Part shown: positions 3,162 through 32,180 of the stretch, piece by piece
How the letters are laid out: each line of letters starts with the position of its first letter
Numbering within the stretch: the first letter of the stretch is position 1
NCBI GenBank assembly: GCA_021513695.1
Contig: CP084166.1
Location: forward strand, 224,001-288,000
Reading direction: 5' to 3'
Source: Candidatus Heimdallarchaeum aukensis
GTDB taxonomy: Archaea > Asgardarchaeota > Heimdallarchaeia > Heimdallarchaeales > Heimdallarchaeaceae
DNA length: 64,000 nt
Notes under the pieces: model-generated
Told to the model about the DNA's origin: nothing
What the model saw: only the letters and a program-made list of their open reading frames with translations
Databases searched by the model: none
Translations under genes and position numbers: made by a program

Positions 3162-4112
3162 TTACTTTGTTAGAAACTCAAGTTTCTCGATATTAATAAA
3201 ACCAAAACTCACTAGATTTGAAAATAAAGAGAGAAAATAGGGGAAAGAAATAATTAATTCTTCATTCTTAAAAATCTCATAAATATCGTAAATCGTATGA
3301 TTAATATTTCCACAGCATTCTTTTAGCATTTTTATGAAAAGTTTGTAAACTTTAACTGGTGTCATCGGGAAAATCTCATCAAAATTTTTTTCGAATATAT
3401 CAATATTTGTTTTGTAACTGTGTGGAATAGCGATTCTAGATTGTAATAACAAATCCAACTCTAGCAATGAAATATCATCAGGGGGATTTTCAATAATTCT
3501 ATCAATGTAAGCAGGGATAAAAGCTAGTGAAAAATTGTCTAAATAAACAAGCTGTTCTATTAAATCGTTAATTTTCTTAATCCACAGTTGAGCTATTTTA
3601 GTATTTAGTGATGAATTGATGCAGATCTTAGTTTCTATGAAGTTGAGAATAGAGTATTCAACAATTTCATTGCACTGTTTATCAGTATTATTGGAATTCT
3701 CTTCAAGATAGTATATTTCTTCTCTTAATTTGTCTATTATCTTAAGAGAGTATAGGTTTACTCCTCCGTAATCAATCGTTGGGGTTAATATTTGCTGATT
3801 ATATTTTGAAATTGATGGTATTGGAATCCCGAATTCTACATCTTGTTCTCCTATTATTGAAGGTGTTTTATCAATATCCGTACGCAAAAGAACATGAGAT
3901 CTAACTGAATTGTTAGTGTCTATAAAGAGTTTTGTAGCTCTTAATGAGCTATCTCCACACTCATGTACATCTACAAGTTCAAAGATATCTTTACCTTCGT
4001 TCAAAAAAGGTAAAATCGTCTTTGGAATGAAAATTATTCTTTGTTTTTGACATGCTGTACATAAATACTCTATTGAAACTCGAGATTCAGCTCTTATTGT
4101 CAATTTCTTCAA
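3162..4112 (-). CDS. Hypothetical protein with N-terminal Cys/His motif (CxxC...VHxC); paralog of 16127..16990
   Basis: 316 aa. 'EYLCTACQKQRIIFIP...LVDVHECGDSS...NSVRSHV...GIPIPSISK' aligns with 'EYQCNICLKQRIMGLP...IIDVHKCKGNK...NVRTQIP...GLPLPSPQK' of the second copy. Confidence 0.5.
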   Translation of the reverse strand: MKKLTIRAESRVSIEYLCTACQKQRIIFIPKTILPFLNEGKDIFELVDVHECGDSSLRATKLFIDTNNSVRSHVLLRTDIDKTPSIIGEQDVEFGIPIPSISKYNQQILTPTIDYGGVNLYSLKIIDKLREEIYYLEENSNNTDKQCNEIVEYSILNFIETKICINSSLNTKIAQLWIKKINDLIEQLVYLDNFSLAFIPAYIDRIIENPPDDISLLELDLLLQSRIAIPHSYKTNIDIFEKNFDEIFPMTPVKVYKLFIKMLKECCGNINHTIYDIYEIFKNEELIISFPYFLSLFSNLVSFGFINIEKLEFLTK

Positions 4113-4507: not shown

Positions 4508-5092
4508 GTGGTACAAATGAACTCATTGAATCAAAACATCTTTAAAATCGTACTCCTTGGAGAAGGAGCTGTAGGAAAAACCTCTTTAAAACGAACTTAT
4601 ATGGGTGAAGAATTCGTAGAAGGATATAAAATGACAGTAGGTGCTGATTTCGCAGTCAAGAAACTGGAGGTAGATTTCTACAAAATAACTTTGCAGATAT
4701 GGGATCTAGCAGGGCAACCTAGGTTTGATGCGGTAAGAGAGGCATACTATAGAGGAGCTAAAGGAGCTTTACTAGTTTTTGATATCTCTAGACCAGAAAC
4801 ATACGAAATACTACCTAAATGGCTAAATGAGTTAATAAAAAACAGTGGTGGACGAAAGGTACCAATAATTCTAATTGGAAATAAATCTGACTTGCGCGAA
4901 AAACATGATCAAACTGTTCCAATTAACTATGCTGAAGATTATGCTGAAAAGCTAACAATGTGGTCTGGATATCACGTGTCTTACGTTGAAACAAGTGCAA
5001 AAACGGGAGAAAATGTAGAAAAAGCCTTTAGTGAATTAGCTCTTCAACTTGTACGTAATTTAGAAAAATTAAAAGTTGAACTAGGGATATAA
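4508..5092 (+). CDS. Ras/Rab-like small GTPase (eukaryote-signature type)
   Basis: 194 aa. G1 'GEGAVGKTS', switch-II/G3 'WDLAGQPRF' (DxxGQ), G4 'GNKSDL' (NKxD), G5 'ETSAK'. This is a Rab/Ras-like layout rather than a bacterial Era/Obg one. Confidence 0.85.
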   Translation: MVQMNSLNQNIFKIVLLGEGAVGKTSLKRTYMGEEFVEGYKMTVGADFAVKKLEVDFYKITLQIWDLAGQPRFDAVREAYYRGAKGALLVFDISRPETYEILPKWLNELIKNSGGRKVPIILIGNKSDLREKHDQTVPINYAEDYAEKLTMWSGYHVSYVETSAKTGENVEKAFSELALQLVRNLEKLKVELGI

Positions 5093-5096
5093 AAAA

Positions 5097-5867
5097 TTAC
5101 TTTCTAAAATATGGTATTTTTACATAAGGTAATTTAATAATAAATTTGTCTTTTGAATAAACAATTATTCCACCAAGTCCTTTAACACAATGTTCGATAA
5201 AATCTTGTTCTATTGACTTTACTTTTTCTCTTTTACCTAAAGTTTCAACCAATTTAAACTTATCATAAAGATTAATTTTAAATACAAAATCCAGCATGTT
5301 CTGCTCATTACTGTATATAATTATAATCTCTGAATTTTTTTGTTGTTGCAATAAGGATTGAAACATAAGATATTCAAATAGGATATCGAGATTTTCATCT
5401 TTAACTATACATAAATCAGCAGAACCTTCAGGAAAAATAATGTCTGGAGATTGTTTAGTATAATGAGTGAGAAGATAGTGAGAAGTTAATTCTTTTATGA
5501 ACTCATGCAAGTTAACAAATGTCTTTTTGTACAATCTTCTAGATAATAACGTTATCAACTGTCTAGTAAATTTAATTTTAAAAATACTCTCTTCTAAAAG
5601 TAGAAGTGATTCATTATTCTCAAAACTTCCTTCTTTCATTGCTGATAAAATACTTAAATTATATACTGTATGGAGAAGATTTCCCATGTCATGGGTTAAA
5701 ATTTCAACTATTTTTGTTGTTCTTTGGTTTTCAGTCTCTATTTCTCGAGTCTTAATTTTTAGATTTTTACTTAACTGATAATTCCAAAGAAATAGAGATA
5801 TGATTAATATAAGTACTAAAGCGAATATAGAGACTACAGCGATTAGAAAAATTGCATAGCTATTCAA
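5097..5867 (-). CDS. Membrane-anchored protein with HisKA-like H-box (putative degenerate sensor histidine kinase)
   Basis: 256 aa. N-terminal TM helix (IFLIAVVSIFALVLILIISLFLW), a predicted coiled segment, then 'ILTHDMGNLLHTVYNL' resembling the H-box (sHELRtPL). The C-terminal ATPase motifs are weak ('GLGG' only). No response regulator is adjacent. Confidence 0.4.
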   Translation of the reverse strand: MNSYAIFLIAVVSIFALVLILIISLFLWNYQLSKNLKIKTREIETENQRTTKIVEILTHDMGNLLHTVYNLSILSAMKEGSFENNESLLLLEESIFKIKFTRQLITLLSRRLYKKTFVNLHEFIKELTSHYLLTHYTKQSPDIIFPEGSADLCIVKDENLDILFEYLMFQSLLQQQKNSEIIIIYSNEQNMLDFVFKINLYDKFKLVETLGKREKVKSIEQDFIEHCVKGLGGIIVYSKDKFIIKLPYVKIPYFRK

Positions 5868-5953: not shown

Positions 5954-7330
5954 TTACCCTGAAACTGTAATATTGGCTATTGAAACAGCAGGAGCATCTA
6001 AAGGCCAAGGTGATTGTAGTACATCATCACCAATTGAAATAAAGTTTTCAAAGACTTGGTAATAGTTTCCTGCAATGCTTACAGATCTTAAAGGTAATGT
6101 ACGTTCTCCTTTTTCAATTAGAAAAGCGTTGTTTGAAGTTATACTGAAATCTCCTGTAATTACATTTGCTGTGAATAGTCCTATTGGTGTCTCTTCAATA
6201 TAGATTCCTTTATCTATTTCTGCTATCTGTTCTTCGAGGTTTTTCTTTACTGGTTCAACTACGAGTTTTCTAGGAGAAACACTTGGGATATTTTCGAAAG
6301 CAATTCCTCCCATCATACCTCCTCTGCTTGCATTAGCTGTTGTTTCTGTATTTGCAGCTTTAGCATACATTCTATCAAAGAGGAAAGTTTTCAAAATTCC
6401 TTTTTCGATGATTGAAGTTTTACCTACTGGGCTTCCTTCTCCGTCAATTGCTACTGTACTTTGACTTTCAGGTATTTGTCCGTCGTCAATTAAGTTGAAC
6501 CTTTCATCAGCAATCTTTTTACCTAGCTTGTCTCCTAAAGGATTCCTTTTTTCCACATATGCAGCTCCAGAGAGTGATTGCATAAATGGAACAGTAAGAA
6601 ATGCTGAAGAAGTATAAGGATGAAGTACAATAGGAAGTTTTTCACTCACATTAAAGGGTTTTGAACCTAAATGCTGAAAACCTTTTTCTACTGCTTTTTG
6701 ACCTAGTTCACTAATATCTTCATTCTTTCTACTAAGGACAAATTCAGATGCAGTTTTCCTATCTCCTTCTTTCATTACAACTGCATACGCTGATCCTCCA
6801 AAGACAGTAGATAAAGTAGAAACTAAACATCCTTCAGTAGTTCCAATAGCGTATCCTCTTACTACTTTTTCGACGTTTACAGATACACCTATGATTCTTT
6901 GATCATTTTTATCAACATTGTAAAGTAGTTCTGAAATTTTGTCTGCTAATTTCTCAGGAGTTAAATGTAAAACTTCATGGTCGAGAATACCATCTTTAGA
7001 TTGTTTACTTTCACTTACAAAACTTTCAAAAAGAGGATTTTTTGGGCTAGCTTTAGCAATAGCATAAGCTTTTCTTAAAGCTTCCTTGATTGATTTTTCA
7101 GAAAAACCAGTACAAGAGGAGAAACCTAGTTGTTTTCCTATTGCAACTCGAATTCCTACCCCCTGAACTACACCATCTCTACTGTCTACTTTACCTTTGT
7201 TTTCGCTTAAACTGGTCTCTAACGAATTATAAACAAAAGCTTCAGCAGACGGAATGTTAAGATCTCTAGCATATTTAATCGTAGTATCGGCAATATTCAA
7301 TATTTTTTCTCGTATTTCATTCAGTTCCAT
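5954..7330 (-). CDS. pmbA: PmbA/TldE-family protein (TldD/PmbA peptidase U62 family, partner subunit)
   Basis: 458 aa, adjacent to and co-oriented with TldD. The start overlaps the TldD stop at 7330. Typical PmbA length and Gly-rich C-terminal half. Confidence 0.75.
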   Translation of the reverse strand: MELNEIREKILNIADTTIKYARDLNIPSAEAFVYNSLETSLSENKGKVDSRDGVVQGVGIRVAIGKQLGFSSCTGFSEKSIKEALRKAYAIAKASPKNPLFESFVSESKQSKDGILDHEVLHLTPEKLADKISELLYNVDKNDQRIIGVSVNVEKVVRGYAIGTTEGCLVSTLSTVFGGSAYAVVMKEGDRKTASEFVLSRKNEDISELGQKAVEKGFQHLGSKPFNVSEKLPIVLHPYTSSAFLTVPFMQSLSGAAYVEKRNPLGDKLGKKIADERFNLIDDGQIPESQSTVAIDGEGSPVGKTSIIEKGILKTFLFDRMYAKAANTETTANASRGGMMGGIAFENIPSVSPRKLVVEPVKKNLEEQIAEIDKGIYIEETPIGLFTANVITGDFSITSNNAFLIEKGERTLPLRSVSIAGNYYQVFENFISIGDDVLQSPWPLDAPAVSIANITVSG

Positions 7331-8781
7331 TATTTTGCACCTCCAACTAAAACTTCATCTACAAGTAACTCTGCACCCCCAAGTCCAACAGGTAATGGAA
7401 ATTGTCCACCTTTACCACATCCACCAAAATAACCAGTCATAATGTTGAAATCTTTGGTTACTCCTTGAACTTGTTTGATTAATTCTAAGATATTTCCTGA
7501 AAGTGATGCATCTCTTACAGCATACTTTATCTCTCCATTTTCAACCCAATAACCTCTATTGCAATTGAATAGAAAGTTTCCATCTAAACCCACTTGACCA
7601 CCTGATGAAGAAACTGCATAAAAACCATCTTTAAGCTGTTCTAGAGCTTCCTCTAGACTTAAGTCTCCAGGAGCAAAGTAAGTATTTTTCATTCGTGGGA
7701 TAGGTGGATACATAAAGGTGATAGCTCTTGAATTTCCTGTTGGTTCAGCATTCATCTTTTTAGCTGTTCCTCTGTTATGTAAGTATCCTTTCAATACTCC
7801 TTTCTCTAAAAGAACAGTTTTGTCAGTTTTAATTCCTTGGTCATCATAAGGAAGCCACAGACCATTTGTTTCTCTTGGGATTGTTCCTTCATCGATAATT
7901 GTTGCCATTTCAGTACCTAAAACTTCGCCTATTTTATCAGATAATGGAGACATTCCAGTTACAACAAAATCACTTTCAGATAAATGTCCAAAGGATTCGT
8001 GAGCCAATACTCCTCCTAATCTCCATCCAATAAGGGCTTTCTGTTTTCCCGCTTTAATTGGCTTTGCTTCAGTTTGCTCTTTGCAATATTTTCCAGCATT
8101 GGTTCCAATTGTTTCAGGAAGATATTTCTCTTTTTCAAAAACTTCTAAACCAAGTGAAGAACCAATTCCATCAATACCCATAGCTCTTTTTCCTTCAATC
8201 ATGGATATAGCTTGTATTCGAAGGTCAACTATCAAAGGTTGCCAGAAGATTTCACTTTCTTCAGAATTCACAAAATATTTGTCTCCATATAGTTCTCCGT
8301 ATAACCCTGTTGTACTACTCGGTTGAATGTGATTTTCAATAGCTTTTACTCCCCGTTTTAACATGGATAATTTTTCATCAAACTCTACATTCTTAGGGTG
8401 CTTCTTTACCTCTGTAAATTGTTTATCAACAATAGGATTCTGTGTTTCAAATTCCATTTTGACTTTATTTCTAGGAGCTGTTGCTTTAGCTATCTTGACT
8501 GCATTTTCAACTGTCTGAAGAATACTTTCCCAGTTTCTCTCTGGAGTGAAAGAAAAACCAGGAGAACCATCGAAATAAGCCATTATTCCAAAACCTTTTC
8601 TTAATTTAGTAGAAGCCTCTCTAATTCTTTCGTTGAGCAGATTAACTGTCATTAAGCTCATATCATCGTATCTAGCCTCAACAAAATCTGCTCCTAAATC
8701 TAATCCTTTATTTACTGCTTTATGTAGTAAATCAAAAATATATTCGTCTATAGCCTTCATCTCGAAAACAACATTGCTCAA
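7330..8781 (-). CDS. tldD: TldD-family metalloprotease (peptidase U62)
   Basis: 483 aa. 'GGVLAHESFGHLSE' HExxxH-type metal-binding motif. Gly-rich C terminus 'GGCGKGGQFPLPVGLGGAELLV' is typical of TldD. Confidence 0.85.
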   Translation of the reverse strand: MSNVVFEMKAIDEYIFDLLHKAVNKGLDLGADFVEARYDDMSLMTVNLLNERIREASTKLRKGFGIMAYFDGSPGFSFTPERNWESILQTVENAVKIAKATAPRNKVKMEFETQNPIVDKQFTEVKKHPKNVEFDEKLSMLKRGVKAIENHIQPSSTTGLYGELYGDKYFVNSEESEIFWQPLIVDLRIQAISMIEGKRAMGIDGIGSSLGLEVFEKEKYLPETIGTNAGKYCKEQTEAKPIKAGKQKALIGWRLGGVLAHESFGHLSESDFVVTGMSPLSDKIGEVLGTEMATIIDEGTIPRETNGLWLPYDDQGIKTDKTVLLEKGVLKGYLHNRGTAKKMNAEPTGNSRAITFMYPPIPRMKNTYFAPGDLSLEEALEQLKDGFYAVSSSGGQVGLDGNFLFNCNRGYWVENGEIKYAVRDASLSGNILELIKQVQGVTKDFNIMTGYFGGCGKGGQFPLPVGLGGAELLVDEVLVGGAK

Positions 8782-8885: not shown

Positions 8886-10922
8886 TTACTCAAAATAAAC
8901 TTCTTTGATCTTTGTATCAATATATTCTTTTATTTCTTCATATTCCAATATATCTTCATGAGGATACTCTAATAGCTTTTTTTCAATCAAGACGGCTATT
9001 TCTTCAGTCTTTTTCTTTAGTGCATACGAAAAACGGTCTACGAATAAAGCAATTGTAAATTCACTTTTTCCTAATAAAAGCATTATATATTCAGAGTGTT
9101 CCAAAATTCTTAGCTCTCCTTTCTTTAGTTTTAGAGTTTTGCTTATATTTTTTATAGCATTAATCATTCCAACAATAAGCAACTCATCAGAATGGAAAAT
9201 ATCTCCATAAGAGTAACTATAGAAAGGAACATTTTCAACAATTAATAAGAAATGAAAAAGATGGAAGTTATTTCTACTGCTTCTAATCTCTGAAGTGAGT
9301 AATCCCTTTGTAGTGTATTGTTTTATTAGATTATCTATTTCTAAAGAAAAATCCATAGAAAAGGGAGTTTGTTCGAATTCTGAGTTTGCTTTTGCCTTCT
9401 TTAGTAGTTGATAGATTTGTCTAATATTCTCTTCTTTATAATTTAAATTATGCTTTTTACATATTATTTCCACTCTTTTTAGCAAATCTTCTGAAAGGTG
9501 AAGTTTGTTTGTATATATGTAAACTGTTGCTAATAGCAACATATAATTTACTAATTGATAAAAGGCATTAAGTTCTTTCAATAGAATAATTATTTCTTGA
9601 GAATATAACTCGATTTCCTCTAATATTTTTTGCTTATTAATTTTATTAGTCTCGATTTTAAACATTACAAGATATAATTCAATCAAGTAAAGAAGAGCAT
9701 TTAATGCTTGGGGAAAAAGGTTCAATTCTCTGGCATAATTTATTCCTTTTAGTAAATAATCTCTGGATGAATAGTAATTCATTTTATAAAATTCAAAAAT
9801 GCCTTTAGTTGTAATATAGGTAGTATAATAAGCGTTAAGTTTAGGCTCATCTAATTTAAATGTCTTTGAATATTTTTCTAAATACAATCCTGCTTTATCA
9901 AAATTGTTAGATATAGCGTATGTCTCTGCTGCTAAAGGATAAATATAATCAAGAGCAATATTGTATTGTTCACTAATTTTAATAGCCTGTTCTAGAAATT
10001 TAAGGGATTCAGGAATGTTATTTAACAGTCTGTAAGCATAGATTATTTCTGCATTTATCATGGCTATATTTCTTAATTCTTTCTTTTTTTCCATAAAAAT
10101 AAGAATGTTAAATAAGTGTTTTAAACCCTCTTTGAAAAATCCTTGTTTGAGCAAAACTACTGCATAATTTGCTTTAGCAACTATTTTTCCTCTTTCAATT
10201 TTTTCAGAACTGAATAATTTAATTGCCTCTGCATAGGCAACCTTACTTTCTATTATTGATCCAGAATAAAGAAGGCAATTTCCTTGCATATTTAGTAAAT
10301 ATGCGTGCAAGTAAACATCTGAAATATCATGTTTTAGGATTTTTTGTAATGCTTTCTCTGAAATGTAAATTCCTTTAATATATTGATGTTTCATGTAGTT
10401 GAACAAGGTTTCTGTATAAAGATACATTATTTCGTAAAATCTACAAAGTTTTTTATCTTTTTCAAATTCACTAACTTGGTCCAATATCTCTAATGCTTTA
10501 TTCAAATATTCTTCTGCTTGCTCAAGTTCGTTTATAACAGAATAGTATTCTACTACATGAAGAAAAAAATCAAAAAGATAGATAATTTGAGTATTGATTT
10601 TACCTTTATCCAGTTTTTCTATTATTTCTTCGATTTTTGGATAATCTCCTTGTATTGCTACAATACGCGAAAAAGAAGCAAAAATTTCAAAAGATTTAAA
10701 CTTCAGATAAAACTCTGATAATTTTTCTCTATCATCATAAATTAATAGAATTTTAGCAATTAAAGCTTGATAATCTGAAGGAACTGAAGAAGATAGAATT
10801 TCATCCCAATACTTTAGGATTGTATTGTAGAAATCAAAATAAGTGTTAAACAACTTTGGATGCATTTTTCCATGTAAGAAATCTTCTTCTAAAAACCTCT
10901 CATATCGCTTTATTTGCATCAT
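8886..10922 (-). CDS. TPR-like helical-repeat protein with C-terminal Roadblock/LC7-like domain (paralog 1)
   Basis: 678 aa. Long helical repeat region rich in Y/L/A/E. C-terminal ~100 aa 'FLLIVENVPFYSYSYGD...LLIVGMINAIKNISKTL...ELRILEHSEYIMLLLGKSEFTIALFVDRF' fits the beta-alpha-beta-beta-alpha pattern of MglB/Roadblock. The Roadblock assignment is inference from pattern, not a search. Confidence 0.55.
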   Translation of the reverse strand: MMQIKRYERFLEEDFLHGKMHPKLFNTYFDFYNTILKYWDEILSSSVPSDYQALIAKILLIYDDREKLSEFYLKFKSFEIFASFSRIVAIQGDYPKIEEIIEKLDKGKINTQIIYLFDFFLHVVEYYSVINELEQAEEYLNKALEILDQVSEFEKDKKLCRFYEIMYLYTETLFNYMKHQYIKGIYISEKALQKILKHDISDVYLHAYLLNMQGNCLLYSGSIIESKVAYAEAIKLFSSEKIERGKIVAKANYAVVLLKQGFFKEGLKHLFNILIFMEKKKELRNIAMINAEIIYAYRLLNNIPESLKFLEQAIKISEQYNIALDYIYPLAAETYAISNNFDKAGLYLEKYSKTFKLDEPKLNAYYTTYITTKGIFEFYKMNYYSSRDYLLKGINYARELNLFPQALNALLYLIELYLVMFKIETNKINKQKILEEIELYSQEIIILLKELNAFYQLVNYMLLLATVYIYTNKLHLSEDLLKRVEIICKKHNLNYKEENIRQIYQLLKKAKANSEFEQTPFSMDFSLEIDNLIKQYTTKGLLTSEIRSSRNNFHLFHFLLIVENVPFYSYSYGDIFHSDELLIVGMINAIKNISKTLKLKKGELRILEHSEYIMLLLGKSEFTIALFVDRFSYALKKKTEEIAVLIEKKLLEYPHEDILEYEEIKEYIDTKIKEVYFE

Positions 10923-11046
10923 TTTATTTCATTATTACTTTATCATAGTATATCTCAAGAGTCGTTAAAAGTTTATCTGATTTTCAAAAATTGATTGATT
11001 CTCGGCGACTCAAAAATAATAAAATAGCTAGAGTTCAAAAGAATAA

Positions 11047-13095
11047 CTACTTTTCAAATATTTCAATTCTTAAATTATCTATTTCTTGTTTTATAGGAGT
11101 TAAAATCTTATTGGTAAAATAGTCAATCTGCAAAACTTCTGTTTGTTGCAATAAACTCTCAATTTTGTTAGCAAATTGAATCAAACGTTCTTTTACAGAA
11201 TAATAGAACTCATCAATGAAGAGAACAACTGAATATTTCTTTCGTTTTTCAATCATTACTATAAAATCAGTAAACTCGATAAGCTTAAAGATTCCATGTT
11301 TTTTTGTCAGAGAGTCACTGAACGATTCAATAGCTTTGAATAATCCAGATAGAAGAAGTTGTTTTTCTTCAATTTTTTCTCCTTTAAATTGATGTGAATA
11401 TAATGGTAAACCGTTAAAGTGAATAATTATTAGATTTATTAGGTGATCTTTGTTATATAAATTGAGGTTTACTTCTATGTTCCTAATTTCTGTAGAAGGT
11501 TTCTGTAATGTTTTTGTTATACTATTCAAACTGAATATTTGAAGAGCTTTATCATCTAACTTTTCAGGATTCTGTTCCATTTTTTTCAGTGTTTGCATTT
11601 CACGTAAAATTTCTTTAAGTTGAGTATTCATATTGTAGTTTTTACATAACTCTACAGTTAAAGAGTAAATATGGTTCGCAAGATCGAATTTCTCCTGAAG
11701 TGCATAAATCCTAGCTAAAAGTAATTGAAAATCTATTTTTAAGTAAATGTTGCTGTGTTTTCGTAATATTAGGGATATCTCTTCGCAAATTTCCTCTAAT
11801 TCACTTATAATTTCTTCAGAATACTGTATTTGTAATTTCTTAATCAAGTAAATTGAATGATATTTCAGTCCAGTTAGATAAAGGGGAAAATTTTTGATAC
11901 TTTTAGCTATTTCTATTCCTTTTTCCAGGAAAATAGATGCATTGTATAAATTTCCTCTTATTAATTCGTAATATCCCTTTAAAGAATAAAATGCACCATT
12001 ATGGAAACTGATGTTTTCTTTATCTTTTAAGATAATATTTTCAAATGTTTTCAAAAGTTTTTCAACAATATCAAATTTTTGAATTTGTATTGCGAACTCG
12101 ATTGATGATATTAATACTTCGTCGTCATAGACTAATCTTGTTTCTAAGAGTTTTATATTTTCTTTAAGATATTCTACTGCTTTTTCTGTTTTACCAATTT
12201 CTATTAGGCATTGCATAATCTCTCTATTTATTAAAGCTACATTTCTCAACTCATTGTTTTCAGAGAAAAATTCTTTGATTTTTATTAACTTAGGTAGAGC
12301 TTCTTTATGTTTTCCGAGTTTGATATCTAAAGAAGCTATATTTCCTTCTGTTACAATTTTTCCTCGATTATTATTCATTTCATTAAACAAATTAAATGAT
12401 TTATAGTAATTTGACTTCGATTGTTTAAGCAACCCTTTAAACATGTAAGCGTTACCTAGAGTGTTGTAAGTAACTGCTAAAAGAAATTCATCTGTTTTTT
12501 CAATATTTTCTAATATTTTTTTGGCTTCACTAAAGTAAAAAATAGCTTTATCTGACTCTCGATATCTAAAAACAGTGAAACCCAGAGTATAGAATAAATT
12601 TGCTTGAAGAAAAAGAAACAATTGACCTTCACTCTTATTTAAGAGAAGTTTGCATTGTGAAATTAGCTGAGAAGCTAATTCATTATTGAAAGTTGTAGCA
12701 AATATTTTTATTTCAGAGTTGTAGAAGTAAAATCTAGGAAAAATTGAAGATTTAGAAATAGATGCTAGATCAGTTTCTGCAATATATGTTTGTGCTTTAA
12801 TTAATCCTCTTTTTAATCGTAATATGTTGAGTAAAGGGCCTAAAGTTTCGATTGAATTATATTTTTTATAAAGAAATTCTAATTTATCATATTCTCCATA
12901 CATATTAAACAAATAACTAATTAAAAATTGAACATCAGGGGGTATGAAAATGTCTCTTATCTTTTTCCAATAATTTTGAACATTTCTGTAAAGATTAAAC
13001 TCTTTCACTTCTGTTATAGTTTTTAACTTTAGATATTTTTTTATCCAATTTTGATCATCAGAGTTTAATAACTGTAAATACCAATCCAAAACCAT
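11047..13095 (-). CDS. TPR-like helical-repeat protein with C-terminal Roadblock/LC7-like domain (paralog 2)
   Basis: 682 aa, same architecture as 8886..10922. C terminus 'INLIIIHFNGLPLYSHQF...LLLSGLFKAIESFSDSL...FKLIEFTDFIVMIEKRKKYSVVLFIDEF...LIQFANKIESLL' aligns position by position with the MglB/Roadblock fold pattern. Confidence 0.55.
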   Translation of the reverse strand: MVLDWYLQLLNSDDQNWIKKYLKLKTITEVKEFNLYRNVQNYWKKIRDIFIPPDVQFLISYLFNMYGEYDKLEFLYKKYNSIETLGPLLNILRLKRGLIKAQTYIAETDLASISKSSIFPRFYFYNSEIKIFATTFNNELASQLISQCKLLLNKSEGQLFLFLQANLFYTLGFTVFRYRESDKAIFYFSEAKKILENIEKTDEFLLAVTYNTLGNAYMFKGLLKQSKSNYYKSFNLFNEMNNNRGKIVTEGNIASLDIKLGKHKEALPKLIKIKEFFSENNELRNVALINREIMQCLIEIGKTEKAVEYLKENIKLLETRLVYDDEVLISSIEFAIQIQKFDIVEKLLKTFENIILKDKENISFHNGAFYSLKGYYELIRGNLYNASIFLEKGIEIAKSIKNFPLYLTGLKYHSIYLIKKLQIQYSEEIISELEEICEEISLILRKHSNIYLKIDFQLLLARIYALQEKFDLANHIYSLTVELCKNYNMNTQLKEILREMQTLKKMEQNPEKLDDKALQIFSLNSITKTLQKPSTEIRNIEVNLNLYNKDHLINLIIIHFNGLPLYSHQFKGEKIEEKQLLLSGLFKAIESFSDSLTKKHGIFKLIEFTDFIVMIEKRKKYSVVLFIDEFYYSVKERLIQFANKIESLLQQTEVLQIDYFTNKILTPIKQEIDNLRIEIFEK

Positions 13096-16126: not shown

Positions 16127-16990
16127 TTATTTTTTATCTACAAAATTTATGGTTAAGATATTAATTATACCTTTTTCAACTAAATTAGCTAAGATTGCGA
16201 TATATTCACTAAAAGAAAAATTATACTTTAGTTCATTGTATATTAGTAATATGTTGTTTTTATCATTGTTTTTACACTTTTCAATAATAGAAGCTAGATT
16301 TCGACTTTCAACAGTATCAAGGTCATTAAAAATCTCTCCAAATTCAGTGTCTTCTTTTATAGTTTGAGGAATTGAGCAAATACTATTTATTATTAATTCA
16401 AGAGCAAGTTTATCGCTCAAGTTCATCTCGTTCGTTACCTTATCATCTAAAAATTTTAGTACAAGTTCTAAAGCTTTGACATCAATATAGGTTGCTTTAG
16501 AGTAAGCTTCTTCAATTCCAGTTAACCATTTTTTAACTTGTTTTTTCTGAACTTCTTTTTCTGTTAATATTTGAATTTCAAGGAATTGGTCATCAATAAT
16601 TATTTTATCTAAGTCGTTTTTTTTAGTTTGATCAAAAACAAATATCTTATTTCTAATTTTATCGTTTATTTGGAAATAATCAATGTTTCTGATTCTAATA
16701 AGATGATCAGTAATGATTTCAATTTTCGATCTCTCTACTTTTTGAGGAGAAGGAAGAGGAAGTCCAGGAATACTAGATTCATCATTTTCCTTTTTTACTG
16801 GAATCTGTGTCCTTACATTTAAATCAGAATCCACATGAAGTAGAATAGCATTTTCCTTATTACCTTTGCATTTGTGAACATCAATAATATCCATTAAACC
16901 TCTCGTATCTACATTAAAATTTATATTTTCAGGAAGACCCATTATTCTTTGTTTTAAGCAGATGTTACATTGATATTCTATCTTCTTCAT
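16127..16990 (-). CDS. Hypothetical protein with N-terminal Cys/His motif; paralog of 3162..4112
   Basis: 287 aa. The shared N-terminal motifs are listed under 3162..4112. Confidence 0.5.
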   Translation of the reverse strand: MKKIEYQCNICLKQRIMGLPENINFNVDTRGLMDIIDVHKCKGNKENAILLHVDSDLNVRTQIPVKKENDESSIPGLPLPSPQKVERSKIEIITDHLIRIRNIDYFQINDKIRNKIFVFDQTKKNDLDKIIIDDQFLEIQILTEKEVQKKQVKKWLTGIEEAYSKATYIDVKALELVLKFLDDKVTNEMNLSDKLALELIINSICSIPQTIKEDTEFGEIFNDLDTVESRNLASIIEKCKNNDKNNILLIYNELKYNFSFSEYIAILANLVEKGIINILTINFVDKK

Positions 16991-26428: not shown

Positions 26429-27424
26429 TTGTTGTTAGTGTTAAAACAAAAAAGAAATAAAAAGATAGTTTGTGCTCTTACAATGACCTCTCTACGCGAA
26501 ATTATCAAACCAAACAAAAAGTTCAATCTAATCAATTTAGATGAAAAAAAAACTGTAGAATTTTGGATTATTTGCTTAGTTGTTGTTATAGATTTGATTT
26601 TTTCAGTTATCATAAATTTGGTTATTTATCGCTTTGGAATATTTAATTGGATTTACGATATAACAGGTTTTGTAACGCCAACAATGCTTGCTTATACAAT
26701 ATTATATTTAGTTATTATAGGTTTATTAATAATTTATTTAGGAAAGCTAAAACCTAAAGATTTAGGATTTTCAACTAGCAAACTTTGGCAAGGTGTTTTA
26801 ATTGTGTTTGTTGGTTGGTTCATTATTCAAATTGCAGGTGTAATTTATTCACTAATTATAAGTGGGACATTAACAATTGATAGTTATATGGTTCAATCTT
26901 CTGCAAAGTTAATAATTATAAAAAACGTTGTTCAATGGTTTTTTAATGCACCATTTGAAGAATTTTTATTTAGAGAATTTTTACTTACACAACTATATTT
27001 ACAGTTCAAAAATAGATTAATTGATGATCCTAAATCGGTTAAGAAGTCTCTAACTCGTTCTTTGATAATATCACAACTAATATTCTCGTTTATGCATATT
27101 CCAAATCGTATTCTATGGGTAGTGAGTTCAGAAAGTTATACTGTAAAAGAAATAATCTGGGCAGCGGTTAATCCTCTTCAATACGGAGTTTTGTTCCTAA
27201 TAGGATTAACATTTGCCATGTTGTATCACAGGACTGATAATATTTTCATTGTTATAGGAATACATGCACTTTTTAATGAACCTAACTCTTTGTTCTTTCC
27301 TAAATGGATAGGTTCAATCTTAATTTATGTTCTTGCAATAATTATAATCCTTTTCTATCCGTTTTTCTTGAGTAAATACTCTAAAGAAAAAGAAATAATT
27401 ATTGAAAAAGATAAAATCCCTTAA
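26429..27424 (+). CDS. CPBP-family intramembrane metalloprotease (CAAX protease / Abi domain)
   Basis: 331 aa. 'FEEFLFREFLL' (EExxxR), 'FSFMHIPNR' (FxxxH) and 'IHALFNEP' (HxxxN) in consecutive TM helices. Confidence 0.7.
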   Translation: MLLVLKQKRNKKIVCALTMTSLREIIKPNKKFNLINLDEKKTVEFWIICLVVVIDLIFSVIINLVIYRFGIFNWIYDITGFVTPTMLAYTILYLVIIGLLIIYLGKLKPKDLGFSTSKLWQGVLIVFVGWFIIQIAGVIYSLIISGTLTIDSYMVQSSAKLIIIKNVVQWFFNAPFEEFLFREFLLTQLYLQFKNRLIDDPKSVKKSLTRSLIISQLIFSFMHIPNRILWVVSSESYTVKEIIWAAVNPLQYGVLFLIGLTFAMLYHRTDNIFIVIGIHALFNEPNSLFFPKWIGSILIYVLAIIIILFYPFFLSKYSKEKEIIIEKDKIP

Positions 27425-28415: not shown

Positions 28416-29279
28416 ATGATTTTTCTGATCTCTCTTAAAAAAATTCAAAAAAAAAATAAATATCAAGAAGAAGAAAAAAGAACCATGAGCGAAGAAAAAT
28501 CAAAAGTTAAGTCATTCTTTAATCCAATTTCTTTTGTAGTTATTTTGCTAATTTGGAATTGGTTAGGTGGTTATCTACTTGATCTTTTTTCAGTTCCGTC
28601 TCAATGGATAGGGACTTATTATCTAGCAGGAACACTTATTTGGAGTTTAGTTTTTGCTAGAGTAGTCAATAAGAAACTAGAAAATATTGGTGTTACAGTT
28701 AAAGTCAAATTTGATTTAAAGTCTTTATTACTAATTATTTTAGCTGCTTTAATAGGTTCAGTATATTTGCTTTTGTCTGCGATCTACAAGTATTCTTTAC
28801 CTTTGGTTGAAATAAACACAGAAATCATAGTCACACTTATTGTTTTACCTATCTCAATTCTAATACAAGCTTTTTTTGAAGAGATAGCTTGGGCAGGATG
28901 GCTTTATTCAAACTTGAAAATGAGAGAAGAAGTAAAGAACTTGATTATAGGTTTGGTATGGGCTGTCTGGCATGTTCCTTTCTATCTATGGGGAATCAAA
29001 TATTTCACATATACACCCTTGTTATACTCTCTTAATGTCATAGGGATAATCTTATCACGTTTTGTTATTAACTGGTTCAGAAAAGAAATGGACAATGTAT
29101 GGTGGCCAACTTTCTATCATGGAGGAATAAATTTAGGTGGATTTATAATCATAGTATTGTATCCTGGTATCGAAAAAATAGCTGAAGTTATAGTATATTC
29201 AGGGTTAATACGAACAGTTATAATCTTGATTTTACAGATTGTAATAACTTTTATTGGAAAGAAAAGAGAAAAAGTTTAA
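28416..29279 (+). CDS. CPBP-like intramembrane protease family protein (second copy, more divergent)
   Basis: 287 aa. 'FFEEIAWAGWLYSNL', 'WAVWHVPFY' and 'FYHGGINLG' are in CPBP-like positions. The true start may be the internal Met of 'MSEEKSKVKS'. Confidence 0.5.
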   Translation: MIFLISLKKIQKKNKYQEEEKRTMSEEKSKVKSFFNPISFVVILLIWNWLGGYLLDLFSVPSQWIGTYYLAGTLIWSLVFARVVNKKLENIGVTVKVKFDLKSLLLIILAALIGSVYLLLSAIYKYSLPLVEINTEIIVTLIVLPISILIQAFFEEIAWAGWLYSNLKMREEVKNLIIGLVWAVWHVPFYLWGIKYFTYTPLLYSLNVIGIILSRFVINWFRKEMDNVWWPTFYHGGINLGGFIIIVLYPGIEKIAEVIVYSGLIRTVIILILQIVITFIGKKREKV

Positions 29280-29291
29280 TTTTTCTCCTTT

Positions 29292-32099
29292 TCAATCCAA
29301 TTTTAGCATTTTTATTTCTATTGGATCAAAGCCAACTTTTAATTTGTTTTCTACTTTTTCTAATTCCTTTACAACTGTTCCATCAATCATAATTTGATTT
29401 ACTTTAGAAACAGTAGCAGGTACTTGAATCGTAGTTTCTTGTTTCTTTTCAGATAGATTGTATAATGTAACTAAAATTGCTCCATCTTTCTTTCTTAATG
29501 AAGATATTCTGATAAAAGGGTTAGAATTGGTTATTATTGGTTCAATCTTTTTATTTTCACTGTTATTACTTACAACAATAGAAATAGGTTGTAAACAAGC
29601 ATTTTCAGAAAGATTATCTGAATAAACAATGTTCTTATTTTTGGAGTGAGCTACAATTGAATACTCAAACTCGAAAGACTTGTTTTCTTCTTGTGCTCCT
29701 GGAGTGTATAAAAAGGGGCCAGCATGCATAGGTCTTTCTGGAAAATCAGAACGAGATAACCAACCTACAGATCTGAGGAGTGTAAGACATAATTTTGAAC
29801 CTTCTACAAGCTCAACTTCAGGTAAACCTTTGTTTATTAAAGTAAAAGCTTCTTCACCTTTCTCATTTCCTACTCTGATCCACCTTTTCTGTGCTTGTAT
29901 TCCAGAAGGTTTTTCTACATAATTTTCTGCTTCTTTCGGATAAGAATTTCTTTCAATATAACCAAAATGAGTAGAAGTGTAAGTTTTTTTACTTGAGAAA
30001 GGTAATGAGAAAGTAATTCTTAAACGATGGTCTTTTGCAGTATTGAATATTTTTGTTTTTATATCAATTCGTGGAGAATCTCTGAAAAAAGTAAAATGAG
30101 TAACTACATCAATTTTTGTTTTTCCTATTCTCTTTTCTCTTTTCTCATCTAATTGCCTAAATGTTTTAAAAGTGGCTTTTTCTTCGACTACTGTGAAAAC
30201 TTCACCTTTTGTTATAATTCTTCTTTTAGTTTTTGACAATTTAGTCTTTACAGGACCTACAAAACTGTAAGTGTATTCATCTCCTCTATCTCCAGTGTCT
30301 TCAAATTGATGAAGTAGAGAATATTCAGTTTTTGTTTTCTTATCATAAAGAGAAAAGGAACCATTTCTCTTAAATTTGACAATATAATAATTGTTAGAAA
30401 TAGTATTCTTTGTTACATTAAATTCTTTTTGAGTTATTGTGTTATCATTTGCTTTTATTGATGAATTAACAGTAAAGCGAGTAAAAGACCAAGGTTTAAG
30501 AGGAGCAAATGAAGCGTATTTTTGCTTAACTCCTCTAGTAGCAACAACATGAAAAAGCTTAAACTTACCACTATTGATCATCTCTTTCAATTCTTTCTTC
30601 ATTTTATCGATATTTAGTTCACCAATAGGTTTCTTTCCACATATAATTTTAATCTCACAAATAGAGTTTTCCTCATCTTTGTTAATAATTACCTCATTGA
30701 TGTAATCATCAATTATTTTTCTACCAGGAAGAAGTTTTAATCCTGATTTTAACATCAATGGTTTCATCTTTTCGTCTAAAATTTTTTCTTGCGAACTATA
30801 AAGTGGTTGAATAGTGTATCTTTGACCGTCTTCACTTATTATCGTCTTTATAGGGAAGTCTAATGGAAAATCAAATTCAAAATAAGTAGGTTCACTACTA
30901 TTTGTCGGGTTGAAAATCATAATCTCTTTAGGCTTTTCAGATTCGTCTAAAGACATTTTAGCTAAAATATTTTCTAAAATGATGTTAGCAATACTTTCAG
31001 ACCAATAAAACCTTGATTTCATTTCTTCATGAGTTTGATCAATTGAACACCCACAAATCGAGTCATGAGGGTGGTTTTTTAGTAACCATTTCCAAGCTAA
31101 ATCTAAATAGGTTTTAGGATATTCAAACGTATAATAATAAGATAAATAAGTTGAAAGTGGTTCTGCATAATGTACAAGGAGATCCTCTATTTTTTGGTTC
31201 CACTGTTTAATCCAAACCCTACTGGAATATGTGTCTTGCAAAAGAGGAGCTCTTTCTGAAGAACGAAATTCTCCTGCATAATGAGCAGGTCCATAATTTT
31301 CCTTTTTCATTTTTTCATTCAATTTTTCTATGAATTCACTAAGAGAACCTAATTTTACTTCAAGATTTTCATATTTTATTTCTTTTAACATTCTGGGGAT
31401 TTTTTCCTTTGGAAATTGGTGGTCCGTTCCATTCATAAGTAAATATAAAGGAAAAGGAGAAAAACTTTCTAGATCTTTTACACAAGTTTCTATTTGAGAT
31501 TTAAGTTCTTCTTTATTTTCGTCTGTTAAATGAGCTGCATTTCCATATCCATAAGGCATGTAAATTCCTAAAATTGATTTAGTAGAGTTTTCATTTCCTT
31601 TCCAAATGAAGGGTACTGTATTTATTTCCTCTCCTACTCCTCTCCAGATAATAGAACCAGAAAAATCAGTTAAATCTGAAACTAATTGAGGAATAGCTCT
31701 TGTATGACCAAACTGGTCAGGAAGATAAGCGAGTTTCATTAATGGAATGTTGTATTTTTTTGAAAGATTATAACTAACTTCAAGATTTCTTATCAAACTT
31801 TCTTGTCCAACTAACCATTCGTCTGGAAGAACATACCAGGGTCCTACTTCAATTTTTCCTTTTTTAATCAAATCCAGTAATTCTTCTTTATTTTCTTTTC
31901 TAATCTCAAAATAATCTTCCAAAACTATAGTTTGTCCATCTAGCATAAAGTAATAATCTTGTTTTCTATTTATCTCAATTAGCTTGTCGATTAATTTTAC
32001 TAAGTTAGCTCTAAAATATTGAAAAGGTTTATACCATTCTCTATCCCAATGTGTATGAGGAACAATAATTACTTCTTTCTGTTTATCCTTGATGTCCAT
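29292..32099 (-). CDS. Glycoside hydrolase family 38 alpha-mannosidase
   Basis: 935 aa. N-terminal 'VIIVPHTHWDREWYKPFQ' is the GH38 catalytic-domain signature. Length and domain order are typical. Confidence 0.9.
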   Translation of the reverse strand: MDIKDKQKEVIIVPHTHWDREWYKPFQYFRANLVKLIDKLIEINRKQDYYFMLDGQTIVLEDYFEIRKENKEELLDLIKKGKIEVGPWYVLPDEWLVGQESLIRNLEVSYNLSKKYNIPLMKLAYLPDQFGHTRAIPQLVSDLTDFSGSIIWRGVGEEINTVPFIWKGNENSTKSILGIYMPYGYGNAAHLTDENKEELKSQIETCVKDLESFSPFPLYLLMNGTDHQFPKEKIPRMLKEIKYENLEVKLGSLSEFIEKLNEKMKKENYGPAHYAGEFRSSERAPLLQDTYSSRVWIKQWNQKIEDLLVHYAEPLSTYLSYYYTFEYPKTYLDLAWKWLLKNHPHDSICGCSIDQTHEEMKSRFYWSESIANIILENILAKMSLDESEKPKEIMIFNPTNSSEPTYFEFDFPLDFPIKTIISEDGQRYTIQPLYSSQEKILDEKMKPLMLKSGLKLLPGRKIIDDYINEVIINKDEENSICEIKIICGKKPIGELNIDKMKKELKEMINSGKFKLFHVVATRGVKQKYASFAPLKPWSFTRFTVNSSIKANDNTITQKEFNVTKNTISNNYYIVKFKRNGSFSLYDKKTKTEYSLLHQFEDTGDRGDEYTYSFVGPVKTKLSKTKRRIITKGEVFTVVEEKATFKTFRQLDEKREKRIGKTKIDVVTHFTFFRDSPRIDIKTKIFNTAKDHRLRITFSLPFSSKKTYTSTHFGYIERNSYPKEAENYVEKPSGIQAQKRWIRVGNEKGEEAFTLINKGLPEVELVEGSKLCLTLLRSVGWLSRSDFPERPMHAGPFLYTPGAQEENKSFEFEYSIVAHSKNKNIVYSDNLSENACLQPISIVVSNNSENKKIEPIITNSNPFIRISSLRKKDGAILVTLYNLSEKKQETTIQVPATVSKVNQIMIDGTVVKELEKVENKLKVGFDPIEIKMLKLD

Positions 32100-32180
32100 A
32101 CTGATCTTTTCGAAGCTAAATAAATAAAAGTTATTCTCAAGAAAGGAGATATCTGAATATAAAAGAAAAAATATGTTTAT

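What the first reader, a model, noticed from the sequence alone, without database searches (positions are those of the whole stretch)
4508..5867. Eukaryote-like Ras/Rab small GTPase convergent with a membrane HisKA-like sensor
The GTPase has complete G1-G5 motifs with a Rab/Ras-like switch II (DLAGQPRF). The convergently oriented neighbour is a single-TM protein with an H-box-like 'THDMGNLL' but a degraded ATP-binding domain, and no response regulator is nearby. Its signalling mode is therefore unclear; it may be a pseudo-kinase or a phosphatase-only sensor. The two genes' 3' ends are 5 bp apart.
Basis: partly seen in the sequence, partly recalled or inferred. Interest (0 to 1): 0.5.

Follow-up and report, generated by a model that had tools for sequence, protein, structure and literature searches.

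The report
Asgard Rab-like GTPase beside pseudo-histidine-kinase
In a Heimdallarchaeaceae (Asgard archaeon) genome, an ordinary Rab-like small GTPase lies tail-to-tail with a small membrane-anchored protein that has the fold of a histidine kinase but has lost its ATP-binding motifs; I found no evidence that the two work together.

The parts
4517..5092 (+). Rab-like small GTPase, 191 aa from ATG 4517 (194 aa if GTG 4508 is used). G1-G5 complete, catalytic Gln present in DLAGQ, no cysteine anywhere and so no prenylation site.
   Evidence: Pfam Ras E 9.9e-49. Best PDB match is Thorarchaeota Rab 7ezb, E 3.2e-40, then Rab11/Ypt31/Rab7. A 99%-identical NCBI protein is named 'Rab family GTPase [Ca. 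Heimdallarchaeaceae archaeon]'. Motif coordinates and absence of Cys. dN/dS 0.043.
5097..5867 (-). Membrane-anchored pseudo-histidine kinase ('X'), 256 aa: N-terminal TM helix, long signalling helix, DHp hairpin carrying HDMGN, and a degenerate CA (Bergerat-fold) domain.
5784..5858 (-). Single transmembrane helix of X (about residues 4-28). About 3 residues lie outside, and a Lys/Arg-rich stretch follows on the cytoplasmic side.
   Evidence: Kyte-Doolittle 19-residue windows exceed 1.6 only for windows starting at residues 1-15. In the AF2 model the helix runs continuously from residue 3 to 79.
5673..5696 (-). H-box THDMGNLL (residues 58-65). It fits the H-[E/D]-x-x-[T/N] pattern. D60, G62 and N63 are invariant in the family. 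H59 is kept in 5 of 6 members and is Asn in P0125.
   Evidence: Alignment A1. A low-confidence profile alignment (probability 9%) places H59 opposite the phospho-accepting His of P0126 and ThkA. Coordinates.
5118..5522 (-). Degenerate CA (HATPase_c-like) domain, about residues 116-250. N-box Mg-binding Asn is Gln170 (EYLMFQSLL), G1 DxGxG is deleted (KIN---LYD), G2 GxGL reads SIEQ.
5093..5096 (.). 4-nt spacer (AAAA) between the two convergent stop codons. On the minus strand it starts a T6 run directly after X's stop. A T5 run lies about 25 nt after the GTPase stop, inside X's coding region.
   Evidence: Sequence read directly. That oligo-T runs act as archaeal terminators is general knowledge and was not tested here.
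5954..8781 (-). tldD (7330..8781) and pmbA/tldE (5954..7330) metalloprotease pair directly upstream of X on the same strand (86-nt gap). This is the neighbour that stays with X in every lineage found.
   Evidence: Pfam PmbA_TldD domains. The order TldD-PmbA-X is seen in the window, L001/L012, L002 and L003/L004. A T-rich run and an A/T-rich TATA-like stretch in the gap suggest that X has its own promoter.
3162..4112 (-). 316-aa protein of unknown function with an N-terminal CxxC...HxC motif, transcribed divergently from the GTPase (395-nt shared upstream region). It travels with the GTPase in related genomes.
   Evidence: Orthologues lie beside the GTPase in L001 (82% identity) and L002 (44%). 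A paralogue is at window 16127..16990. No significant family hit. Weak CdvA match only.

Best explanation
These are two independent, separately transcribed genes that happen to abut tail-to-tail in one small clade of Heimdallarchaeaceae.

Gene 1 is a standard Asgard Rab-like small GTPase. It is a GTP/GDP switch with an intact P-loop, switch I Thr and switch II Gln. It has no lipid-anchor cysteine, so any membrane association would have to go through partner proteins. Its effectors are unknown.

Gene 2 is a lineage-specific descendant of a HisKA-type histidine kinase. It has a single-pass membrane anchor and a cytoplasmic DHp helical hairpin that probably dimerises. Its CA domain keeps the fold but has lost the residues that bind Mg-ATP, so it cannot phosphorylate itself (inferred).

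The H-D-x-x-N motif on DHp helix 1 is the part under strongest conservation. I therefore infer that the protein docks a response regulator encoded elsewhere in the genome. It would then either dephosphorylate it (phosphatase-only mode, my first choice) or exchange phosphate with it through His59 (Spo0B/ChpT-like phosphotransfer). It has no extracellular domain, so any input must come from within the membrane, from the cytoplasm or from a partner protein.

Shown: the fold, the loss of motifs, membrane anchoring by one hydrophobic helix, purifying selection, and the pattern of synteny. Inferred: dimerisation, response-regulator binding, and the phosphatase or phosphotransfer chemistry.
For: GTPase:
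- Pfam Ras E 9.9e-49.
- The top 60 PDB hits are all Rab/Ypt proteins plus Thor-Rab.
- 6743 homologues have E below 1e-20, and the best ones that carry a source name are labelled Heimdall-, Kari- or Thorarchaeota.
- It has no Cys, as reported for Thor-Rab (PMC10933270).

X, fold and motifs:
- AF2 pLDDT 79.9.
- hhalign puts the CA domains in register, with N-box Asn to Gln170, G1 deleted and G2 replaced by SIEQ.
- D60, G62 and N63 are invariant in all six family members. The His is Asn in P0125. That pattern fits a phosphatase better than an obligatory phosphotransfer role. The basis is general knowledge of the HisKA E/DxxT/N phosphatase motif and of DHp-only phosphatase activity in EnvZ.
- dN/dS is 0.086.

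Independence of the two genes:
- They are convergent, so they cannot share a transcript.
- In L003/L004, X keeps tldD-pmbA upstream, but a 995-aa secreted protein replaces the GTPase.
- GTPase homologues of 59-67% identity in three other Heimdall genomes have unrelated neighbours.
- The literature notes that Asgard GTPase genes are generally not in operons with their regulators (PMC10933270).
Against: - No response regulator was identified, in the window or elsewhere, so the proposed substrate is hypothetical.
- The structure is a prediction from only six sequences.
- DHp homology is weak at sequence level (hhalign probability 9%).
- The tail-to-tail arrangement with a 4-14 nt gap is kept in three lineages in which X itself has diverged to 36% identity. 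That leaves some room for a real link.
- The pseudo-CA domain has its own invariant residues (S218, E220, F223, G233), which hints at a function I have not explained.
Confidence: 0.55

Rival explanations
1. X is a pure pseudo-kinase or scaffold with no phosphoryl chemistry at all. It would heterodimerise through its DHp with a bona fide histidine kinase (as RetS does with GacS), or bind a phosphorylated response regulator as a readout (as DivL does with DivK~P), and so modulate another pathway at the membrane.
Against: The His is kept in all five short single-TM members, and the D-x-G-N beside it is invariant. That conservation is more than a plain docking surface would need. No partner kinase is encoded in the 64-kb window.
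Confidence: 0.22
2. X and the Rab-like GTPase form one signalling module, analogous to the actinobacterial conservon (G-protein system). There a membrane histidine-kinase-like protein controls a small Ras-like GTPase. Here the membrane pseudo-kinase would recruit or regulate the GTPase.
For: Tight convergent adjacency (gaps of 4, 6 and 14 nt) is kept in the window, Ca. H. endolithica and L002, although X has diverged to 36% identity. Linkage between histidine kinases and small GTPases has precedent in bacteria: conservons and Group 1 Rup neighbourhoods (PMC4316618, PMC13343842, PMC13621833).
Against: The genes are convergent, not co-transcribed. No roadblock/MglB or CvnC-like gene is adjacent. 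In L003/L004, X occurs without the GTPase beside it. GTPase homologues elsewhere lack X. X is found only in a handful of genomes, whereas the GTPase family is widespread in Asgard archaea. The three genomes that keep the pair are fairly close relatives (TldD 78-95% identical), so the adjacency may simply be inherited.
Confidence: 0.07
3. X is functionally tied to the upstream TldD/PmbA protease pair. It might act as a membrane anchor or regulator for the protease, or as a sensor of its peptide products, and be expressed from the same transcription unit.
For: The order TldD-PmbA-X on one strand is the only neighbourhood conserved in all four lineages that carry the short form of X.
Against: The gaps are 81-237 nt. 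In the window the gap contains a T-rich terminator-like run followed by a TATA-like A/T stretch. The lineages are related closely enough (TldD 73-95% identity) for passive synteny. I know of no link between TldD/E and two-component proteins (my own knowledge, not searched exhaustively). P0125 sits in a different context.
Confidence: 0.1

Closest known systems
Asgard Rab-like small GTPases (e.g. Thorarchaeota Thor-Rab, PDB 7EZB; Tran et al. 2024, PMC10933270)
   Same: About 44% identity to Thor-Rab over the whole G domain, including the identical switch II WDLAGQPRF. All of G1-G5 are present. Rab-family signature stretches are present (YYRGA exact; TLQIW, LVFDIS and VGADF close). The C-terminus is short and has no prenylatable cysteine.
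   Different: Nothing of note. There is a small insertion (TMWSGYH) before the last strand. It is one of many paralogues, and a 99%-identical protein is already in NCBI, named Rab family GTPase.
Eukaryotic Rab GTPases (Rab11/Ypt31-32, Rab7, Rab1)
   Same: These are the best eukaryotic matches (E about 1e-37, 35-43% identity). The catalytic residues are the same and the fold class is the same.
   Different: No C-terminal hypervariable tail and no CC/CxC geranylgeranylation motif (no Cys at all). No Rab escort protein (REP), GDP-dissociation inhibitor (GDI) or known Rab exchange-factor (GEF) context was found here.
Canonical HisKA-type sensor histidine kinases (e.g. BceS, WalK, HK853, CpxA)
   Different: N-box Asn is Gln, G1 is deleted and G2 is replaced. 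There is no Pfam HisKA or HATPase_c match. It has only one TM helix and no sensor, HAMP or PAS domain. No cognate response regulator is adjacent.
Degenerate histidine-kinase derivatives: Spo0B and ChpT (phosphotransferases with a pseudo-CA domain), DivL and RetS (pseudo-kinases)
   Same: The design principle is the same: the DHp is retained and the CA-like domain no longer works as an ATPase. DivL and RetS are among the structural hits.
Actinobacterial conservon / G-protein system (CvnA-D; PMC13343842, PMC13621833, PMC4316618)
   Same: A membrane histidine-kinase-like protein is encoded next to a small Ras-superfamily GTPase.
   Different: In conservons the four genes form one co-directional operon with a roadblock/MglB protein and CvnC. 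CvnA has an intact ATPase domain, a HAMP domain and a C-terminal LPxR motif. CvnD belongs to the MglA family. None of these features is present here.

Membership tests
Ras superfamily, Rab-like branch (Asgard Rab-like GTPases) | G1 GxxxxGK[ST], switch I Thr, G3 DxxGQ, G4 NKxD and G5 SAK all present | tested here: met
   GEGAVGKT, T43, DLAGQ, NKSD and SAK at the expected spacing. Pfam Ras 165.5 bits against a cut-off of 21.6.
Ras superfamily, Rab-like branch (Asgard Rab-like GTPases) | Closer to Rab than to Ras, Rho, Ran, Arf or MglA | tested here: met
   The top 60 PDB hits are all Rab/Ypt proteins plus Thor-Rab. BLASTP bit scores: Rab 112-138, Ran 98, Ras/Rho/Rap 77-92, Arf 42, MglA 30. In the NJ tree the nearest eukaryotic sequences are Rabs only in 86 of 100 bootstraps.
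Eukaryotic Rab family proper | C-terminal Cys motif for geranylgeranylation | tested here: not met
   The protein contains no cysteine at all and ends ...KLKVELGI.
HisKA-type histidine kinase | DHp four-helix-bundle hairpin followed by a Bergerat-fold CA domain | tested here: met
HisKA-type histidine kinase | Phospho-accepting His in an H-box on DHp helix 1 | tested here: inconclusive
   H59 lies in THDMGNLL and aligns with the H-box His of P0126 and ThkA, but the profile alignment is weak (probability 9%). The His is conserved in 5 of 6 family members and is Asn in P0125. Phosphorylation cannot be tested here.
HisKA-type histidine kinase | ATP-binding N, G1 and G2 boxes in the CA domain | tested here: not met
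   N-box Asn is Gln170 (Lys in P0124). G1 DxGxG is absent (a 3-residue deletion and no Gly). G2 GxGL reads S-[IL]-E-x.
HisKA-type histidine kinase | Match to Pfam HisKA and HATPase_c models | tested here: not met
   No such hit at E up to 10 for any of the six family members. A profile search of PDB sequences gave 0 hits.
HisKA-type histidine kinase | Cognate response regulator encoded nearby | tested here: not met
   No Response_reg hit in the window ORFs scanned, and none in the gene tables of L001-L004.
Phosphatase-competent HisKA DHp (E/DxxT/N motif) | H-[E/D]-x-x-[T/N] directly at the H-box | tested here: met
   H59-D60-M61-G62-N63. D60 and N63 are invariant in all six members. The meaning of the motif rests on general knowledge of HisKA kinases. 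The activity itself cannot be tested with these tools.
Actinobacterial conservon (CvnABCD) | Co-directional operon of an HK-like protein, a roadblock/MglB protein, CvnC and an MglA-type GTPase | tested here: not met
   The genes are convergent. No Robl_LC7 or DUF742 hit occurs among the neighbours. The GTPase is Rab-like, not MglA-like.
Spo0B/ChpT-type histidine phosphotransferases | Soluble DHp with His plus a pseudo-CA domain, acting between two receiver domains | not testable with these tools

The most novel reading that the evidence does not exclude
The membrane pseudo-kinase and the Rab-like GTPase form an archaeal counterpart of a receptor-G-protein module. The membrane-anchored DHp/pseudo-CA dimer would recruit or regulate the cysteine-less Rab-like GTPase at the membrane. 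That would replace lipid anchoring and resemble the actinobacterial conservon, but with a eukaryote-type Rab in one of the archaeal lineages reported as closest to eukaryotes. The divergently transcribed 316-aa Cys/His protein that travels with the GTPase could be a third component.
Probability: 0.06. Interest if true: 0.8.

Novelty: new variant of a known kind. Interest (0 to 1): 0.27.

Why it matters
The GTPase adds nothing new. Rab-like GTPases are abundant and already described in Asgard archaea, and a near-identical protein is already annotated.

The neighbour is a small, previously unannotated family, labelled 'hypothetical protein' in the one named NCBI record. It shows that Heimdallarchaeaceae carry stripped-down histidine-kinase derivatives: a membrane anchor, a DHp with an intact HDxxN motif, and a dead ATPase domain. 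This minimal design could serve as a model for kinase-independent DHp functions, such as phosphatase, phosphotransfer or scaffold roles, in an archaeon close to eukaryotes.

The practical lesson for genome scans is that the tail-to-tail adjacency is weak evidence here. The pseudo-kinase stays with tldD-pmbA when the GTPase is gone.

Tried and rejected
- Pfam, NCBIfam and PDB sequence searches with X and with its family profile found nothing. Sequence-level membership of HisKA or HATPase_c could not be shown.
- A single-sequence AF2 model was too poor to use (pLDDT 52). It was replaced by the model built on the alignment.
- An indexed search with the family profile added no new members.
- A scan of 185,579 species genomes found only Ca. 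Heimdallarchaeum endolithica PR6. The metagenome scan found nothing. More contexts could therefore not be obtained.
- MglA/Era-type GTPase was rejected on scores.
- A conservon-like operon was rejected on gene orientation and missing components.
- I asked whether the TPR proteins 4 kb away (8886..13095) link to the GTPase. The TPR protein near a GTPase homologue in L006 is not detectably related to them. The C-terminal domains of the window TPR proteins gave no Roadblock/LC7 hit.
- A profile of the 316-aa divergent neighbour gave only a marginal CdvA match (E 0.0099), which I treat as a lead and not a result.
- One PDB search with the full-length real kinase P0126 mostly returned its periplasmic binding domain and was of little use.

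Full report
**Setting.** The window has about 29% G+C. The proteins closest to those of the finding come from Candidatus Heimdallarchaeaceae (Asgard archaea). The GTPase is 99% identical to an NCBI protein named 'Rab family GTPase [Candidatus Heimdallarchaeaceae archaeon]'. The neighbouring gene is 84% identical to a gene in the complete genome of Ca. Heimdallarchaeum endolithica PR6, CP084167.1. No tRNA or Rfam RNA lies in the window.

**Observation.**
- The GTPase ORF can start at GTG 4508. Orthologues and the 99%-identical database protein begin at the ATG at 4517, giving 191 aa.
- G1 GEGAVGKT, switch I Thr, G3 WDLAGQPRF, G4 GNKSD and G5 ETSAK are all present.
- The two stop codons are separated by four bases, AAAA.
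- The neighbour (256 aa, here called X) has one hydrophobic helix at its extreme N-terminus. THDMGNLL lies at residues 58-65.
- Both genes are under purifying selection against the H. endolithica orthologues. dN/dS is 0.043 for the GTPase and 0.086 for X, similar to the flanking pmbA at 0.086.

**The GTPase.**
- Pfam Ras family scores 165 bits. The Era-type MMR_HSR1 model scores 20 bits.
- Against all PDB sequences the best match is the Thorarchaeota Rab 7EZB (E 3.2e-40), which has the identical switch II WDLAGQPRF. The next 59 matches are all eukaryotic Rab/Ypt proteins: Rab11, Ypt31/32, Rab14, Rab7, Rab1, Rab43, Rab2 and others.
- I ran a rough BLASTP comparison and a neighbour-joining tree.
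  - Bit scores were Rab 112-138, Ran 98, Ras/Rho/Rap 77-92, Arf 42 and MglA 30.
  - The protein sits in an Asgard clade with Thor-Rab next to the eukaryotic Rabs.
  - In 86 of 100 bootstraps the nearest eukaryotic sequences were Rabs only.
- The protein has no cysteine, so it lacks the prenylation motif that defines eukaryotic Rabs. The same was reported for Thor-Rab. Rab-like GTPases are described as the major small-GTPase class in Asgard archaea (PMC10933270).
- This gene is therefore a member of an already known kind.

**The neighbour X.**
- Sequence searches fail. There is no Pfam or NCBIfam family for X or its relatives, even at E up to 10. A family profile found no PDB sequence hit.
- An exhaustive HMMER search of 1.84 billion representative proteins found only five relatives. 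An indexed search added one close homologue. The family is as follows.

| Member | Identity to X | Notes |
|---|---|---|
| P0001 | 96% | short single-TM form |
| P0002 | 84% | H. endolithica lineage |
| P0123 | 36% | named 'hypothetical protein' in NCBI |
| P0124 | 31% | short single-TM form |
| P0125 | 26% | periplasmic SBP_bac_3 domain, one TM helix, then the X-like region |
| P0126 | weak match | genuine SBP_bac_3-PAS-histidine kinase |

- With the six-sequence alignment A1, AlphaFold gave a usable model (pLDDT 79.9, pTM 0.72). Its parts are:
  - a continuous helix from the membrane to residue 79;
  - a turn and a second helix (86-108);
  - an alpha/beta sandwich.
- Profile-profile comparison aligns residues 153-247 with the HATPase_c domain of P0126 (probability 79%, E 1.6e-5). 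It aligns residues 141-249 with a small profile of real kinases (probability 47%, E 1.9e-4), in the same register.
- In that register the ATP-binding boxes are lost:
  - the Mg-binding Asn of the N box is Gln170 (Lys in P0124);
  - the G1 box DxGxG falls in a three-residue deletion with no glycine;
  - the G2 box GxGL reads S-[IL]-E-x.
- The H-box is of the H-[E/D]-x-x-[T/N] type. D60, G62 and N63 are invariant in all six members. H59 is kept in the five short members but is Asn in P0125.
- A restricted profile alignment places H59 opposite the phospho-accepting His of P0126 and ThkA, but its probability is low at 9%.
- X is thus a histidine-kinase derivative that keeps the fold and the DHp motif and has lost the ATP site.
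- It has essentially no extracellular part, about 3 residues, so 'sensor' overstates it.

**Context and coupling.**
- No Response_reg, HisKA or HATPase_c domain was found in the window ORFs scanned.
- The order tldD-pmbA-X on one strand is present in every lineage that carries the short form of X: the window, L001/L012, L002 and L003/L004. The gaps are 81-237 nt. In the window the gap holds a T-rich run and a TATA-like A/T stretch, which suggests that X has its own promoter.
- The convergent GTPase, together with a divergently transcribed 316-aa Cys/His protein, follows X in the window, L001 and L002, with gaps of 4, 6 and 14 nt.
- In L003/L004 a 995-aa secreted protein follows X instead. After it comes a GH38/PadR-like block that lies 24 kb away in the window.
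- GTPase homologues of 59-67% identity in three other Heimdall genomes have unrelated neighbours and no X.
- X evolves much faster than its neighbours. It is 31-36% identical between lineages, against 73-78% for TldD, 61-67% for PmbA and 74% for the GTPase.
- The lineages are close enough for adjacency to be inherited passively. The one rearrangement observed separates X from the GTPase, not from tldD-pmbA.
- The literature on Asgard GTPases likewise notes that their genes are generally not arranged in operons with regulators (PMC10933270).

**Mechanism.**
- I commit to two independent genes.
- The GTPase is a conventional nucleotide switch without a lipid anchor.
- X is most likely a membrane-tethered, probably dimeric DHp/pseudo-CA protein that cannot autophosphorylate. 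It would act on a response regulator encoded elsewhere.
- The conservation pattern (D-x-G-N invariant, His dispensable in one member) fits a phosphatase-only mode best. This rests on established knowledge of the HisKA E/DxxT/N phosphatase motif and of DHp-only phosphatase activity.
- Spo0B/ChpT-like phosphotransfer through His59 is the second option.

| Rival | Probability |
|---|---|
| Chemistry-free pseudo-kinase or scaffold (DivL/RetS-like) | 0.22 |
| Functional tie to TldD/PmbA | 0.10 |
| Conservon-like pseudo-kinase-GTPase module | 0.07 |

- Bacterial precedents for linkage between histidine kinases and small GTPases exist: conservons and Group 1 Rup neighbourhoods (PMC4316618, PMC13343842, PMC13621833). 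The defining features of those systems are absent here:
  - a co-directional operon;
  - a roadblock/MglB protein;
  - CvnC;
  - an intact ATPase domain;
  - an MglA-type GTPase.

**Verdict.** The GTPase is already known. X is a new, very narrowly distributed variant of the known class of degenerate histidine kinases. The adjacency is probably incidental, and interest is modest.

Noticed in passing
window 3162..4112 (-); paralogue 16127..16990 (-); L001 11748..12689; L002 5150..6040: A 290-316-aa protein family with an N-terminal CxxC...HxC motif and no Pfam or NCBIfam match. One copy is transcribed divergently from the Rab-like GTPase and stays beside it in two other genomes (82% and 44% identity). 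It is absent downstream of X in L003, where the GTPase is also missing. A family profile gave only a marginal match to the archaeal division protein CdvA (9s9g, E 0.0099). It could be a GTPase partner, but this is untested.
   Followed up: partly
window 8886..10922 (-) and 11047..13095 (-): Two tandem paralogous 678- and 682-aa TPR proteins (25% identical), each ending in a roughly 130-aa domain with no family match. They are conserved in Ca. H. endolithica. The C-terminal domain shows weak similarity (E 0.002) to a 367-aa protein encoded next to a GTPase homologue in L006. No Roadblock/LC7 hit was obtained.
   Followed up: partly
window 26429..27424 (+) and 28416..29279 (+): Two Rce1-like (CAAX prenyl-protease family) membrane proteins are encoded in the same window, although the Rab-like GTPase has no cysteine and so no CAAX box.
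   Followed up: no
window 33989..35443 (-), 37854..38792 (+): A TnpB/Cas12f-like protein (TNB domain) and an rve-family integrase with HTH domains. They coincide with a local G+C rise to 0.36 at 34-36 kb, so this is probably a mobile-element island.
   Followed up: no
window 46426..52791 (+): A 2121-aa secreted protein with Big_1, Big_3_5, CarboxypepD_reg, MG4 and A2M domains (alpha-2-macroglobulin-like). It is followed by several membrane and ATPase genes that have no family assignment.
   Followed up: no
window 29292..33065 (-) compared with L003 7347..11573: The GH38 alpha-mannosidase plus PadR-like gene block lies 24 kb from X in the window. In L003/L004 it lies almost directly downstream of the X homologue. 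This marks a rearrangement breakpoint exactly between X and the GTPase.
   Followed up: partly
P0125 / L005 399..1964: A 521-aa relative of X carries a periplasmic SBP_bac_3 solute-binding domain in front of the TM helix and has Asn in place of the H-box His. Its architecture parallels the genuine kinase P0126 (SBP_bac_3-TM-PAS-HK). This suggests that the pseudo-kinase family arose from solute-sensing kinases of this type.
   Followed up: partly
window 5497..5778 (+): A 93-aa ORF lies antisense inside X. It is most likely a shadow ORF of the AT-rich coding strand and not a gene.
   Followed up: no
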